Assembly: GCA_951406725.2 (NCBI GenBank)
Contig: OX597823.1
Coordinates: 20,336,001-20,400,000, forward strand
DNA: 64,000 nucleotides
Direction of reading: 5' to 3'
Source: Octopus vulgaris
Lineage: Eukaryota
Shown here: positions 5,430 through 49,871 of the stretch, piece by piece
Position numbering within the stretch: position 1 is the first letter of the stretch
Layout of the letters: the number at the start of each line of letters is the position of its first letter
Position numbers and translations under genes: made by a program
The notes under the pieces: model-generated
What the model was told of the DNA's origin: nothing
The model's input: the letters and a program-made list of their open reading frames with translations, nothing else
The model's database searches: none

Positions 5430-5790
5430 TTTCACTCCTACACATATATACATGCACACGTCCAGACCACCAGGCCTCTTTCACACGCACATACATACTC
5501 TCTTATACACGCACCCACCTTCTTGTTGGGGGTCATATTTACTTTGTTATCTCCCCTACTTTCCCCCTCGTGTGTGACCCTTCTGTTCGAGTCAGCGCCA
5601 TGCTAGATCGTTAGCCACTACACACATTTTTTTCTCTCCTTGTTTTTTTCGGTACCCCTTTCTGTAGAAGAGCGTAGGCTCGAAACGTAAAAGACTTTTT
5701 CTATTCCTGAGCGTTATACTAATACATCTGTTTGTTTTGTACACCACCTGTCTTCGTCTTTTGTTTTTTTTCGTAAACTCTCCCTATATA
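5430..5790 (+). mobile_element. Penelope-like terminal-repeat module with minimal hammerhead-like motif
   Basis: Homologous to 11900-12310 and, in reverse, to 53150-53232; contains GAAGAGCGTAGGCTCGAAACGT and ends in (TA)n. The Penelope assignment is inference. Confidence 0.55.
5658..5693 (+). ncRNA. Minimal type I hammerhead-like motif, atypical core (CUGUAGA)
   Basis: CTTT-CTGTAGA-A-GAGC(GTAG)GCTC-GAAA-C-GTA-AAAG: stems I and II pair, stem III is the ACGT palindrome; core has A6U. Confidence 0.5.
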
Positions 5791-6217
5791 TATATATATA
5801 TATATATATATATATATATATATATATATATATATATGTTTTACTCATTACCTTTAATAATTGCAGATTTGACAGAGTATTCCTTTGGTCAAGTTATCAG
5901 TTCAAGTTATCTAAACTTTAATAGAATTTGAACTCAGTTCTCTACAAACTAGAACAATGACTGTAAGTTACGGCATTCGACATTCTAAGAATTGCGCCAG
6001 TTCATCGCCCGTGATTGGTTTTTATTCATCGATCCCGGAATGACGAAAGGCAAAGTGGACCTGACGGATTGAGATAAACTTTCTGACAACCATAAGCTCT
6101 ATTGTGTTTTATAAATGTTATAATATAGTAGTATATTTAATTCTGGGCTCTTGAGCATGTTTGAATAGGAGGTGCAATAAATAATCAGTTGTATGTTCGT
6201 ATCGTAACAACAGCTAA

Positions 6218-6812
6218 AGCGGCGAGTTGGCAGAAGCGTTAGCACGCCGGGCGAAATGCTTAGCAGTATTTCGTCTGCCGCTACGTTCTGAGTTCAAATT
6301 CCGCCGAGGTCGACTTTGCCTTTCATCCTTTCGGGGTCGATTAAATAAGTACCTTTTACGCACTGGTGTCGATGTAATCGACTTAATCCGTATGTCTGTC
6401 CTTGTTTGTTCCCTCTGTATTTAGCCCGTTGTGGGTAGTAAAGAAATAGGTATTTCGTCTGCCGCTACGTTCTGAGTTCAAATTCCGCCGAGTTCGACTT
6501 TGCCTTTCATCCTTTCGGGGTCGATTAAATAAGTACCAGTTGCGTACTGAGGTCAATATAATTGACTTAATACGTTTGTCTGTCCTTGTTTGTCCTTTCT
6601 GTGTTTAGCCCCTTGTGGGTAGTAAAGAAATAGGTATTTCGTCTGCCACTACGTACTGAGTTCAAATTCCGCCGAGGTCGACTTTGCCTTTTACCCTTTC
6701 GGGGTCGATTGAATAAGTACCAGTTGCATCCTGGGGTCTCAATCCACTTAATCCGTTTGTCTGTTCTTGTTTGTCCCCTCTATGTTTAGCCCCTTGTGGG
6801 CAATAAAGAAGT
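6218..6812 (+). mobile_element. SINE family A with three tandem ~183-bp body units
   Basis: Head, then GTATTTCGTCTGCC...GTAAAGAAATA repeated from about 6266, 6449 and 6633. Confidence 0.88.
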
Positions 6813-8142
6813 AAGTATTATGGAACTAATTATTGTAATTTACTGACTTGCAAAATAAGTACAAATCTTTTCTCTCGAGTAAAGTAATTTGCATAGACCA
6901 GGGCATCATTCTTTTCTATAGCTTAGTCAGAAGAGAAAGGACGCGTCTAAGATCATAAAAAGGAGAACTAAATCTCCTGGTGGTAAGGAAGAGATCTGAC
7001 ATGGATGCTTTCAATAGGATGGACTCTGTTAAAACCATCTAAGGACTAGATGTGGTTTTAAATCGGGAAATGGATAGATGCACTACCCAATCACTGGCAC
7101 AGTTTATGCAATGCTCCTCCTTTTTCGAACGCAATTGTGTATGATTTTAAAACAAAAAGAAAATAATAAATTTTTTAATGGACTCTGTTCTCGAATCATA
7201 CATTAGATGAAACTTGAGCCTCGGTTTCTCAATCCTAGTATTAAACCTTAATTCTCCCTCATCACATCACAACCAGCTGTCTCAGCCATTGAAGAAAGTA
7301 CAAATATAGTGTGAGACACCAAAAAAAGTTTTATGTTATCACTACGAACCGATGTTATGATAGATATTTCAATTCAAAGCATAACATTTTGTCTTGTCTT
7401 ACACAAATTTTGCTCTTAAACTTCATTTATTATTTTTGTTTTTACCCAAATCATTATTTACCGAAAGCCATTTTTCCCCCCACAAAAAGAAAAAAAAATC
7501 AAGCATGTTTATCAAAAAATAAACGCCATTTTTTCTTTCAACATTTGCTTCATTTCACAAGTCTTGTGTTGAAGTTTGATTGAAACAACATAAGTTACTT
7601 TCTTGGTATTTTTTTTCTTTTAATAGATGACTGAAAGCAAAAAAAAAAAGAAAAAAATGTCAATAATCTATCATCAAACAGTATAATGTTTATTTTCGAG
7701 AAAGTTACCATTAGTTTTGTATACTTTCGCTATTATTTTTAACGCCTCCTTTTGATGTTGGGTCTGCTAGGAAGTGAATAAGAATATATGTATTTCAGGA
7801 CTGCAAATAGATTGATGTTGAGCAAACACACTGAATGTTAAAAGCATCAGACAGTATCGTAAACGATTCTGGGTAAATATACCTAATATGACACACAGGC
7901 ATAGACGCTACGCACAGCGACAAAAGGATACATTAGGGAAGAGGGAAAATGGTACACTAGAGGTATATGGATATATATATATATAATATATATATATATA
8001 TATATACATATAATATATATATATATGCAGTACAAATATATATATATATATATATATATATATATATATATATATATATATATATATATATGTATGTATG
8101 TATGTATATATATATATATGTATGTATATGTATAAAGAGGTA

Positions 8143-47096: not shown

Positions 47097-47550
47097 GGCG
47101 CCGGAGTGGTTGTGTGGTAAGTAGCTTACTTACCAACCACATATTCCCGGGTTCAGTCCCACTGCGTGGCACCTTGGGCAAGTGTCTTCTACTATAGCCT
47201 CTCGGGCCGACCAAAGCCTTGTGAGTGGATTTGGTAGACGGAAACTGGAAAAAGCCCGTCGTATATGCATATATATATATATATATATATATATATATAT
47301 ATATATATATATGTATATGTGGGTGTGTGTATATGTTTCTATGTCTGTTGGTCTCCGCAGCATCGCTTGACAACCGATGGTGGTGTGTTTATGTCCCAGT
47401 AACTTAGCGGTTCGGCAAAAAAGAACCGATAGAATAAGTCCTGAGGCTTACAAAGAATAAGCTCTGGTGTCGATTTGCTCGACTATAAAGGCGGTGCTCC
47501 AGCATGGCCGCAGTCAAATGACTAAAACAGATAAAAGAGAGTAAAAGAAA
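47097..47550 (+). mobile_element. SINE family B
   Basis: Full head-to-tail match with internal (TA)n. Confidence 0.9.
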
Positions 47551-49833
47551 AGGAGAGGAAGTGTGAAGCTTGTAGACATGTTTCATCGAAAGCAGGCTCT
47601 ATTAATCAAATGAAATCACGTATATACCTTTCCGTCCGTTATGATATTTCTGCAGCGTGCAACAGTAAGTGTCCAGTATGACCGAATGTGAAAGTGCTAA
47701 AGCTTTTACATAAAAAAAATGTCATTTTATGGACGAAACAGATTAATCTTGTGCAAATGTTGTGTTTTGTTATTTTTGCTCTAGACCATGTAAATCGTTG
47801 GCAGAATGTATGACAGAGTGTTGTTTGACTGAATGTAAGATAACGAGACGGTTATCATTTGTCAAGATGAGACATTCATGAAGAATGTATGAATTCATTA
47901 TATGTATATACGTATGTTTAAACCTATCGAACTGAAGCTGTAAATGTTTACATAAAGACTACAACATAGGCACCGGAGTGGTTGTGTGGTAAGTAGCTTA
48001 CTTACCAACCACATGGTCCCGGGTTTAGTCCCGCTGTGTGTTTTTATGCATGTATTTGTATTGTTTTTAAGTGTGGATATGTATGAAAAAAAGAAGCAAA
48101 TTAACGAGCTTTAGGGCATTGCATAAAATGCCATGCACTTCAAATCCTACCCATACCAATCATGGTCTTCAAACGTTCAGGGATGATAATTTAACTGGAC
48201 CCATCCAGGTGGTGGAATGTTGGACATGTTAGACCGCCAGACAAGAGGTTTAAAGGTGTATGAATCGTTTCTTTGCATTCTGGCGGCAAAATCTTCGACG
48301 ATACTACTGCGAGACATGGTTTTCCCATTGGATAACATCGGGGTGGGGGGGGAACTTAGCGGATGGAGACTTGTATACTGTTGCTGTTTCAGACATTCTT
48401 TATCCAGACCTATGCATATGTACAGGCAGGCAGGCAAATCTGACACGAGATACGAAGGATGTATCGATGTAAATATCTTTGTATGTACATGTGCATATAG
48501 TATGTATGTATAAGTATGTATGTATTTCTATATGCATGTGTGTATCTGTGTTGTGTATTTTTTTCTTGTAAGGAGCAATCAATAAAACGTAATATGGGCG
48601 CCAGGAGACTTTCGCTCCGTTCTTGCACAGTAAAATCATCGAAGCAACGAACTCACATTAATGTTTCTCTGACAGCTAGGCTTTCTAAAACATATTTATT
48701 TCAGTCTCTCTGCTTAACGGCGTGTTGTGCATAAACTATAAACTGCTTAATTGATATCTAAGTAATGATGAACTGTCAAAAACAAAAGTAGGCATATTAC
48801 ACTTTACAGTGGAGTAATAGCTAAATTTATATCTGCTTTATATGGTAGTTAAATATTCCATGCTGGTGTTTGGCGAAGAAAACTGGGAAACCGGAATTCT
48901 ATATCTGAGGAGTGGTTTACAATTCGTGAAACGTTCCGTTACGAGACAGCTCACTTCGTATTCTCACACACCAAAAGCATGGAAGAAAAATGTTTACATT
49001 CGTATTTTTCTCACAGCCGGTTTCCTATCGTTGTATGTGGTCACCCGAAATATAAGCTCCATCGTTAACTCGAGTATGTGTACCGTTGTCTGTATGCAGG
49101 CGTATATAAGTGTATTTACTGAGAGTTACCTGTATATGGCTTTGCTGTGCTTATGGGTGTATGCGTGTGTAGCGTTATCTGTGTGAATATTTATTTGATT
49201 TGCGTTGCCTGTATGTATTTGTGAGCTTGGTTTATGTGTGTGTGTGTGTGTGTGTGTGTGTGTGTGAGAGAGAGAGAGAGAGAGAGAGAGATAGAGAGAA
49301 AGTGAGAGTTAAAGGACGCTGCAAAAGCAAACACGAAACCAGAGCCTGAAGTAGAAAGCAAGACTTAATGAAATGAAGACGAATTAATAGACGAAAGAAA
49401 CAGATTTGTAGTTTGTTGATATTTGAAACAGAAAATAAATTAGTGAAACGAAGTTTACAGAAATGTGTGCTTTCAATAACAGTCTTCGTGCAAAGAAACT
49501 AATGGCAATGGACAGCTGTAAAATGATGGTTGACAAAACATATGCTCTAGGAAGACTGGAAAAATAACTGGCATGCAAAAGATTAAACCTACACATACGC
49601 CCAAACGCGCGCGCACACATACACGCATATACACACAAACACACACAGACACACACTTAAATACACACAGAAACGTATGTATGCGTTTTTTGTGTTCGTA
49701 TATATATATATATATATATATATATATATATATATTTACATATATAGGCACATGCTCATATACATACACAGTTATTTATATGTAAGTAAATATATATATA
49801 TATATATATATATATATATATATATATATATAA

Positions 49834-49871
49834 CTGCTTGACGAACGGAAACGCGAAACTCTGGGTAACAA
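49834..49871 (+). ncRNA. Degenerate minimal hammerhead-like motif
   Basis: TTGACGA-ACG(GAAA)CGC-GAAA-CTCTGGG-TA-ACAA between (TA)n and (CA)n; stem I weak and core has C3U. Confidence 0.4.

What the first reader, a model, noticed from the sequence alone, without database searches (positions are those of the whole stretch)
5658..49871. About nine more hammerhead-like motifs from several unrelated families, mostly in short modules beside (TA)n tracts
Seen at 5658(+), 9320(-), 9715(+), 12173(+), about 12581(+), 16224(-), 17307(-), 31439(+) and 49834(+). All have type I topology with a very short, often palindromic stem III (ACGT, ACATATGT, ACAGCTGT, ACAATTGT). Established: Penelope-like elements carry minimal type I hammerheads in their terminal repeats, and palindromic stem III forms cleave as dimers. 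Inference: this genome may hold a very dense, diverse and largely unannotated ribozyme population targeted to TA microsatellites.
Basis: partly seen in the sequence, partly recalled or inferred. Interest (0 to 1): 0.7.

Follow-up and report, generated by a model that had tools for sequence, protein, structure and literature searches.

The report
Penelope transposon ends carrying hammerhead ribozymes
The nine motifs are hammerhead-ribozyme-shaped sequences at the tail ends of broken copies of seven repeat families (six tied to Penelope-like transposon genes, the seventh likely), a known pairing, except that several very large families carry unusual letters in the catalytic core whose ability to cut RNA is untested.

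Summary
All nine sites are minimal type I hammerhead (HHR) motifs. A descriptor finds 5 hits in the window outside the satellite versus 0.07 in shuffles. They belong to seven dispersed families with 35,768 exact pattern matches genome-wide and 0 in controls. Six families link to Penelope-like element (PLE) RT/GIY-YIG frames upstream: A Neptune-like; B, C, D, F Hydra; E Poseidon-like. G has Hydra-type architecture but no frame was found. The sites are 5'-truncated 3' ends, dense because the HHR lies near the element's 3' end. (TA)n abuts the 3' end in A, B, C, D and G, not in E or F. This is largely published: minimal PLE HHRs in thousands per genome, (TA)n preference of Hydra PLEs, and an octopus Hydra family with an HHR. 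Only 3 of 9 window copies have the canonical CUGANGA core and most are decayed. The unusual part is family-wide core variants: A6U in family A (74 of 77 copies, N7 the only freely varying core base) and U4C in C and G, including in intact tandem Hydra elements. Cleavage was not tested.

The parts
5658..5693 (+). Family A minimal HHR, core CTGTAGA (A6U), extra A after A9, 4-bp stem II, palindrome ACGT, stem I 4 bp; in a 5'-truncated module about 5427-5785 ending at (TA)n 5785
11485..12309 (+). Longer family A copy: pyrimidine-rich 3' UTR of a Neptune-like PLE, HHR at 12173-12210 (core CTGTTGA, A6U), ending at (TA)n 12309
   Evidence: 95% identical over about 850 nt to L022, which carries the GIY-YIG frame upstream
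9320..9382 (-). Family C HHR, core CCGAAGA (U4C), extended stem II, extra U before G12, stem III 4 bp with 1-nt loop, stem I 6 bp; module about 9293-9533 between (TA)n tracts; 3' end of a Hydra-clade PLE
9715..9797 (+). Family B HHR, canonical CTGATGA, long stem II, palindrome ACATATGT; module about 9600-9846 between (TA)n tracts; Hydra-like PLE end
12524..12629 (+). Family D HHR, core CCGACGA at 12529 (U4C), 9-bp stem II with about 60-nt insert, palindrome ACAATTGT, stem I damaged in this copy; module about 12337-12699 ending at (TA)n; Hydra-like PLE end
16226..16269 (-). Family E HHR, canonical CTGATGA, decayed stem II base and stem III; module 16131-16325 plus inverted piece 16324-16363; 3' UTR of a Poseidon-like PLE; no (TA)n junction
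17308..17387 (-). Second family B HHR (other subfamily), canonical core, stem III mismatch; module about 17257-17517 ending at (TA)n
31439..31486 (+). Family F HHR, core CCGATGA in this copy (family mostly CTGATGA), mismatch at 10.1-11.1 then 7-bp stem II, palindrome ACAGCTGT, stem I 4 bp; module about 31299-31713; Hydra-like
49832..49873 (+). Decayed family G HHR (TTGACGA here; family core CCGACGA, 3-bp stem II); stem I broken; parent reading frame not found
60331..61023 (-). Broken Neptune-like PLE reading frame (RT thumb, CxxC linker, GIY-YIG); not joined to any of the nine motifs, used as the query that found full-length PLEs

Best explanation
The nine motifs are minimal type I hammerhead sequences in the 3' terminal repeats of Penelope-like retrotransposons (shown for six families, likely for the seventh), likely left behind as 5'-truncated insertion relics. 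Shown: the HHR lies about 30-230 nt from a fixed 3' end, 5' ends vary, tandem and head-to-head inverted copies occur, and RT/GIY-YIG frames lie upstream in sense in longer copies. Inferred: the element's protein nicks the target (a TA tract for families with a cysteine linker) and primes reverse transcription near the RNA 3' end; early termination yields short modules that nearly always keep the HHR, which explains the density. Copies run on past the predicted cut site, so the template was likely not cut at that ribozyme. Inferred from the literature: in tandem transcripts two HHRs pair through the palindromic stem III and cut slowly, probably with protein help, releasing unit-length RNA. Solitary copies are probably inert and decay neutrally. 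The A6U and U4C cores are inherited family states of the master elements and likely give weak but retained cleavage.
For: Exact pattern matches, control 0 each: A 17,870, B 3,578, C 4,062, D 257, F 183, G 2,379, E 7,439. A: L021/L081 hold a 557-aa open frame with YIDD, a CX2-5CxxC linker and GIY-YIG upstream of the UTR and HHR, in partial tandem. C: 2.58-kb tandem units with intact 717-aa frames meeting the Hydra motifs RWK, DKT, CxCX5C, CxxC, CxH. B: L211 Hydra-like frames between copies. D: Hydra-like endonuclease matches upstream in sense in L163, L165, L170, L175 of 25 loci. F: Hydra-like remnant upstream in L351 (E 1e-6). E: a GIY-YIG frame without the cysteine linker is followed by the E HHR region in 13 of 20 loci. 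TA polarity is 3' over 5', and E, the family without the linker, shows no TA bias. Family A, 77 copies anchored on the 3' half: positions 3, 4, 5, 8, 9 match consensus in 75-77, N7 takes all four bases, H17 is G in 2. Published: PMC4209133 (minimal HHRs in PLE repeats, thousands per genome, dimers, low activity); PMC8557442 (Hydra clade, (TA)n, HHRs, Hydra-1_Obim); PMC11167929 (HHR needs protein and is dispensable for insertion in vitro).
Against: G has no reading-frame link among 34 copies examined. The F link rests on one locus of four long ones fetched, the B link on one locus with frames plus two weak matches. D's cores are heterogeneous. Pfam gave only sub-threshold or no matches for the A, B, C and E frames, so clade calls rest on motifs and tblastn, not a tree. 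A6U and U4C break the consensus; changes at these positions lower activity in published tests (PMC3088659), so these families may carry dead motifs. The 77 family A copies are related, so column conservation is not 77 independent events. No cleavage or transcription data.
Confidence: 0.88

Rival explanations
1. The elements are PLE ends, but the variant cores (A6U, U4C) are dead ribozymes carried along because cleavage is dispensable for transposition.
For: PMC11167929: HHR mutants do not reduce insertion in vitro. PMC8557442: Naiad PLEs thrive without canonical HHRs. PMC3088659: A6C and U4C lower activity. Family C also has an extra U before G12 that can pair with A9 in the folded model. 8 of 9 Xenopus retrozyme dimers did not cleave.
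Against: In family A only N7 and H17 vary freely across subfamilies while other core bases stay fixed. U4C creates a mutable CpG yet is the majority state (C 24 of 26, G 90 of 100 listed) and recurs in C, D, G and some F copies. Other PLE families here keep the 3-8 pair through U3-A8 and A3-U8 changes.
Confidence: 0.4
2. The short modules are self-contained non-autonomous ribozyme elements (SINE-like or retrozyme-like) that spread through their own RNA and use the ribozyme for targeting or circularisation.
For: Most copies are short and lack coding sequence. Family E carries tRNA-like A/B-box motifs ahead of the HHR and many copies begin there. A true tandem HHR array lies in the same window at 38034-45018.
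Against: 5' ends are variable and run into PLE frames in longer copies. E's tRNA-like head follows the stop codon of a Poseidon-like frame in 20 of 28 loci (some duplicates), and the common start is a short palindrome where inversions also join. ARAGORN and Rfam did not call the head a tRNA.
Confidence: 0.1
3. The motifs are chance matches in AT-rich, microsatellite-rich DNA.
For: The descriptor also hits weak, probably false motifs (52442; the CTGCCGA motif in the satellite). Monomer folding energies are not significant.
Against: Shuffles give 0.07 hits per window. Each site belongs to a family of hundreds to thousands of copies, and family members show better stems than the window copies.
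Confidence: 0.01

Closest known systems
Minimal hammerheads of metazoan Penelope-like elements (Cervera and de la Pena 2014, PMC4209133)
   Same: Type I, short stem I, palindromic minimal stem III, often an extra base after A9, many heterogeneous families, mostly single truncated copies, opposite-strand pairs; U3-A8 core covariation.
   Different: Counts there were 2,000-9,000 per genome; here at least 35,768 exact matches and about 100,000 by extrapolation. A6U, U4C and A3-U8 are not mentioned in the two of four parts read.
Hydra-clade PLEs, including Hydra-1_Obim (Craig et al. 2021, PMC8557442)
   Same: Family C frame meets all listed Hydra motifs, unit under 3 kb, (TA)n insertion, 3' HHR; 28 of the first 44 residues match Hydra-1_Obim by eye. 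F and G HHR layouts match entries of their table S2.
   Different: Every Hydra HHR in table S2 has CTGANGA; families C, G and much of D here have CCGANGA. Family C is not Hydra-1_Obim itself (different HHR).
Neptune/Nematis-type PLEs with a CX2-5CxxC linker
   Same: Family A frame has the linker and C-terminal GIY-YIG; 3' end at (TA)n.
   Different: A6U core family-wide; Neptune versus Nematis not resolved (no tree built).
Poseidon/Penelope-clade PLEs (PAc, PMC11167929)
   Same: Family E frame lacks the cysteine linker; canonical minimal HHR; inverted copies; no microsatellite junction.
   Different: E's 3' UTR holds tRNA-like A/B-box motifs and an (AAT)n tract ahead of the HHR. The clade label rests on recalled motif patterns.
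Natural HHR core variants (Perreault et al. 2011, PMC3088659)
   Same: U4C (viroid), A6C (phage), U3-A8 and U10.1-U11.1 are known natural states.
   Different: There they are rare single cases; here U4C and A6U are fixed in families of thousands of copies. A6U does not occur in that paper's main text.
Non-LTR retrozymes (bioRxiv 10.64898/2026.07.22.740005)
   Same: PLE-derived type I HHRs in animal genomes.
   Different: Retrozymes are tandem non-coding arrays; the nine sites are dispersed truncated ends. The 489-bp array in this window fits that kind better.

Membership tests
Minimal type I hammerhead | Core CUGANGA...GAAA...UH | tested here: inconclusive
   Met by family majority in B (22 of 34), E (42 of 61 CTGATGA, 5 CTGAAGA), F (19 of 41); not met at one base in A (U6), C and G (C4); D mixed. 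In the window 3 of 9 meet it.
Minimal type I hammerhead | Stems I and II close around the core; short palindromic stem III | tested here: met
   Family majorities pair in all seven; perfect palindromes in A, B, D, E, F; 4 bp with a 1-nt centre in C and G. Broken in several window copies.
Minimal type I hammerhead | N7 free, H17 not G | tested here: met
   Family A: N7 T36 A22 C11 G8, H17 G in 2 of 77; H17 G in 1 of 34 B, 2 of 41 F, 0 of 26 C, 0 of 27 G, 0 of 61 E.
Minimal type I hammerhead | Site-specific self-cleavage as dimer | not testable with these tools
   Needs an in vitro assay.
Penelope-like element | RT plus C-terminal GIY-YIG frame upstream of the terminal repeat | tested here: met
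   A, C, E clear; B, D, F by remnants; G not found. Pfam RVT_1 and GIY-YIG were detected on related full frames L061-L064 but weakly or not on the family frames.
Penelope-like element | Partial tandem and inverted 5'-truncated arrangements | tested here: met
   C tandem at 2.58 kb with an inverted arm (L206/L207); A tandem at 1.55 kb (L081); head-to-head pairs in B, C, D, E, F, G.
Hydra clade (family C) | RWK, DKT, CxCX5C linker, CxxC and CxH, under 3 kb, (TA)n insertion | tested here: met
   Motifs at residues 46, 123, 566, 669, 700 of the 717-aa frame; TA in 24 of 25 loci; definition.
Hydra clade (families B, D, F, G) | Same protein motifs | tested here: inconclusive
   B has DKT and Hydra-like matches; D and F 30-42% matches to the C protein; G none.
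Neptune clade (family A) | CX2-5CxxC linker before GIY-YIG | tested here: met
   Residues 226-234 of the L081 frame. Shared with Nematis, so the clade is not settled.
Neptune or Poseidon clade (A, E) | Placement in an RT phylogeny | not tested
   No reference PLE proteins were on hand; no tree built.
tRNA-derived SINE (family E) | tRNA-like head at a fixed 5' start, independent of a coding element | tested here: not met
   A/B-box-like motifs are present, but the head follows a PLE stop codon in 20 of 28 loci and is not called tRNA.
Non-LTR retrozyme | Non-coding tandem units each with an HHR | tested here: not met
   The nine sites are single dispersed copies.

The most novel reading that the evidence does not exclude
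This genome holds on the order of 100,000 PLE hammerheads in which whole families run on non-consensus catalytic cores (A6U in at least 17,870 copies, U4C in intact, recently active Hydra elements, plus U3-A8 and A3-U8 in other families) that remain functional and are selected for slow, dimer- and protein-gated cleavage. It would be a natural mutational library of the hammerhead core and a direct test of what the ribozyme does for Penelope elements.
Probability: 0.35. Interest if true: 0.55.

Novelty: new variant of a known kind. Interest (0 to 1): 0.35.

Why it matters
The role of the hammerhead in Penelope elements is open: it is conserved, yet slow and dispensable for insertion in vitro. 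Families that fixed A6U or U4C while amplifying to thousands of copies, one with intact tandem elements, let the question be tested directly: either these cores cleave, which widens the natural hammerhead consensus and means standard searches miss tens of thousands of motifs, or they do not, which shows successful PLEs can lose cleavage while keeping the fold. The presence, density and TA preference on their own are expected from published work.

Tried and rejected
DNA search of the genome with a family A module found nothing because common words are skipped; tight patterns were used instead. Rfam on the window was dominated by microsatellite look-alikes. Pfam did not recognise the short window frames. 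An R4/Dong-like non-LTR element upstream of family E in L302, L098 and L265 first suggested a non-PLE parent; rejected because it sits in E's (AAT)n tract and other copies continue into a Poseidon-like frame. Family E as an independent tRNA SINE: considered and lowered. The CTGCCGA motif in the satellite passes the descriptor but has a wobble-rich stem I and is treated as a probable false hit; the array's better HHR is another one. Monomer folding z-scores are uninformative for these motifs. No parent frame for G. Sequencing runs: no RNA holder listed on record; laying four contig sets on the family C end gave nothing on expression or cut sites. Earlier scan findings: none returned. Lunse et al. 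2017 (RNA Biol, small PLE-associated HHR variants) could not be read and may already list A6U or U4C cores. One search opened an unrelated paper from a misremembered id.
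Full report
Setting. The window is G000:C10:20336001-20400000 in a 2.8-Gb assembly, 36% GC, with dozens of (TA)n tracts. Closeness of one element to a published octopus family suggests a cephalopod; this is inference only.

Observation. All nine motifs are at the stated places with type I order of parts; the core of the fifth is at 12529. A descriptor allowing core variants, written after seeing them, gave 5 hits in the window outside the satellite (4 of the nine plus one chance-like hit) against mean 0.07 in 30 shuffles, and 7 hits in 170 kb of stretches not chosen for motifs (8 flanking the window, 9 distant) against mean 0.1 in 10 shuffles. 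One of the 7 is a doubtful motif, so 6-7 per 170 kb, about 100,000 genome-wide with a 95% range of about 36,000-240,000. Only 3 of 9 window copies have canonical CTGANGA and 5 of 9 fail the strict descriptor through damaged stems. Monomer folding is not significant. Rfam showed no hammerhead among 150 listed of 346 matches.

Families. The nine fall into seven families: A (5658, 12173), B (9715, 17308), C (9320), D (12524), E (16226), F (31439), G (49832). Exact pattern matches in the genome, each with 0 in the reversed control: A 17,870, B 3,578, C 4,062, D 257, F 183, G 2,379, E 7,439; total 35,768, a lower bound. The loci examined are the first 25-30 listed per family, nearly all on contig C1, and a few overlap. 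Copies share a fixed 3' end and vary at the 5' end, with tandem and head-to-head inverted pairs.

Link to Penelope-like elements. A broken frame at 60331-61023 (-) found 8,277 candidates and long frames with Pfam RVT_1 and GIY-YIG matches. Family A: longer copies run upstream through a pyrimidine-rich UTR into a frame with YIDD, a CX2-5CxxC linker and GIY-YIG (L021/L081); the window copy at 12173 matches L022 at about 95%. Family C: 2.58-kb tandem units with intact 717-aa frames bearing RWK, DKT, CxCX5C, CxxC and CxH, the Hydra definition. B: Hydra-like frames in L211. D: Hydra-like endonuclease matches upstream in sense in four loci that share long upstream sequence. F: one Hydra-like remnant, in L351, of four long copies fetched. 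E: a GIY-YIG frame without the cysteine linker, Poseidon-like by recalled motifs, is followed by the E HHR region in 13 of 20 loci. G: no frame in 34 copies, though its HHR layout matches Hydra entries in the published table. Pfam matches on these family frames were weak or absent and no tree was built.

(TA)n. A tract begins within 150 nt 3' of G12 in A 17/30, B 18/30, C 24/25, D 22/25, G 18/25, E 2/25, F 5/25, against 0.14-0.18 at unselected positions; the 5' side gives 8/30, 9/30, 4/25, 5/25, 12/25, 0/25, 0/25. Binomial p is below 1e-5 for A, B, C, D, G and not significant for E and F. F reaches 11/25 within 250 nt. The family lacking the cysteine linker is the one without TA bias, which fits the published proposal that the linker drives targeting.

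Core variants. Family A: of 77 copies anchored on the 3' half, position 6 is U in 74, A in 2, G in 1; positions 3, 4, 5, 8, 9 match consensus in 75-77; N7 is T36, A22, C11, G8; H17 is G in 2. Copies anchored on the tail alone show the same core. Family C: CCGANGA in 24 of 26 and in all 11 copies of the ORF-bearing loci L206, L207, L208, L210, with an extra U before G12 in 25 of 26. G: C4 in 90 of the 100 listed matches. D is mixed, with C4 the commonest. B, E and F are mostly canonical. Other PLE families here end in HHR-like motifs with U3-A8 or A3-U8. U4C makes a CpG, so methyl-decay would remove rather than create it (established chemistry). Against function: related copies are not independent events, published changes at positions 4 and 6 reduce activity, and in C the extra U can pair with A9.

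Mechanism. Shown: position of the HHR near a fixed 3' end, variable 5' truncation, tandem and inverted structures, upstream PLE frames, TA junctions in five families, and integrated tails beyond the predicted cut site. Inferred: target-primed reverse transcription with early termination makes HHR-bearing stubs, so density follows from HHR position rather than selection on each copy. Inferred from literature: dimer cleavage of tandem transcripts, slow and protein-assisted. Untested: any cleavage or expression; the run search listed no holder on record as RNA.

What is known, and what I saw of each paper. PMC4209133: parts 1-2 of 4 of the text; supplements not read. PMC8557442: passages, section 11, supplement searches and part 2 of 59 of the supplement; it lists Hydra-1_Obim with (TA)n preference and an HHR, and all Hydra HHRs in its table S2 have CTGANGA. 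PMC11167929: passages. PMC3088659: passages and section 8; figures not seen. PMC7151607: one passage. PMC6765202: passages. PMC6962438: passages (235 Rfam hammerheads in giant squid). bioRxiv 10.64898/2026.07.22.740005: parts 1-3 of 5; supplements not seen. PMC11662667: one passage, about twister ribozymes, not relevant. Lunse et al. 2017: nothing seen; it may bear on the variant cores. Searches for family-wide A6U or U4C in retroelements, a cephalopod hammerhead census, or a tRNA-headed PLE end found no such report in this library; the library lacks most subscription papers and Repbase.

Verdict. Real and well explained: relic 3' ends of Penelope-like elements with minimal hammerheads, a known pairing with known TA preference. 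The part worth a bench test is the fixed A6U and U4C cores. Novelty: new variant of a known kind; interest 0.35.

Noticed in passing
window 38034-45018 (-): 489-bp tandem array, 99% identical units; 14 units each carry a type I hammerhead with canonical core, 8-bp stem I, long stem II and near-palindromic stem III (fold z -3.48). Fits a non-LTR retrozyme-like array.
   Followed up: partly
L179:2200-2460, L330:1101-1900, L358-L385: Family E's Poseidon-like PLE has tRNA-like A/B-box motifs about 40 nt after its stop codon, then (AAT)n, then the HHR; a 31-nt head pattern has 714 exact matches. Possibly a captured Pol III promoter.
   Followed up: partly
L302:1900-4100 (-), L098, L265: An R4/Dong-like non-LTR element (RT, zf-RVT, restriction-like endonuclease by recalled motifs) sits in the (AAT)n tract of family E in three loci.
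   Followed up: partly
L061, L065, L068, L069 (U3-A8); L064 (A3-U8): Neptune-like PLEs end in very small HHR-like motifs with covaried 3-8 pairs, 2-4-bp stem II and palindrome ACCGGT, followed by (TA)n in several.
   Followed up: partly
   Followed up: no
window 53134-53245 (-) and 35670-35741 (+): Tail-only fragments of families A and E, truncated 3' of the ribozyme.
   Followed up: partly
L062 and L078: Neptune-like PLEs with an extra 437-472-aa frame overlapping upstream of the RT frame; L078 has tandem and inverted copies.
   Followed up: no
window 6266-6819, 21984-22425, 58200-58638; 12768-13180 and copies: Abundant SINE-like repeats, some in 184-bp tandem arrays, and a second SINE-like family with an internal (TA)n tract, many copies in the window.
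   Followed up: no
window 61036-61104 (+): Rfam tRNA match at 32.5 bits, above the gathering score, within a repeat that also occurs at 5137-5314.
   Followed up: no
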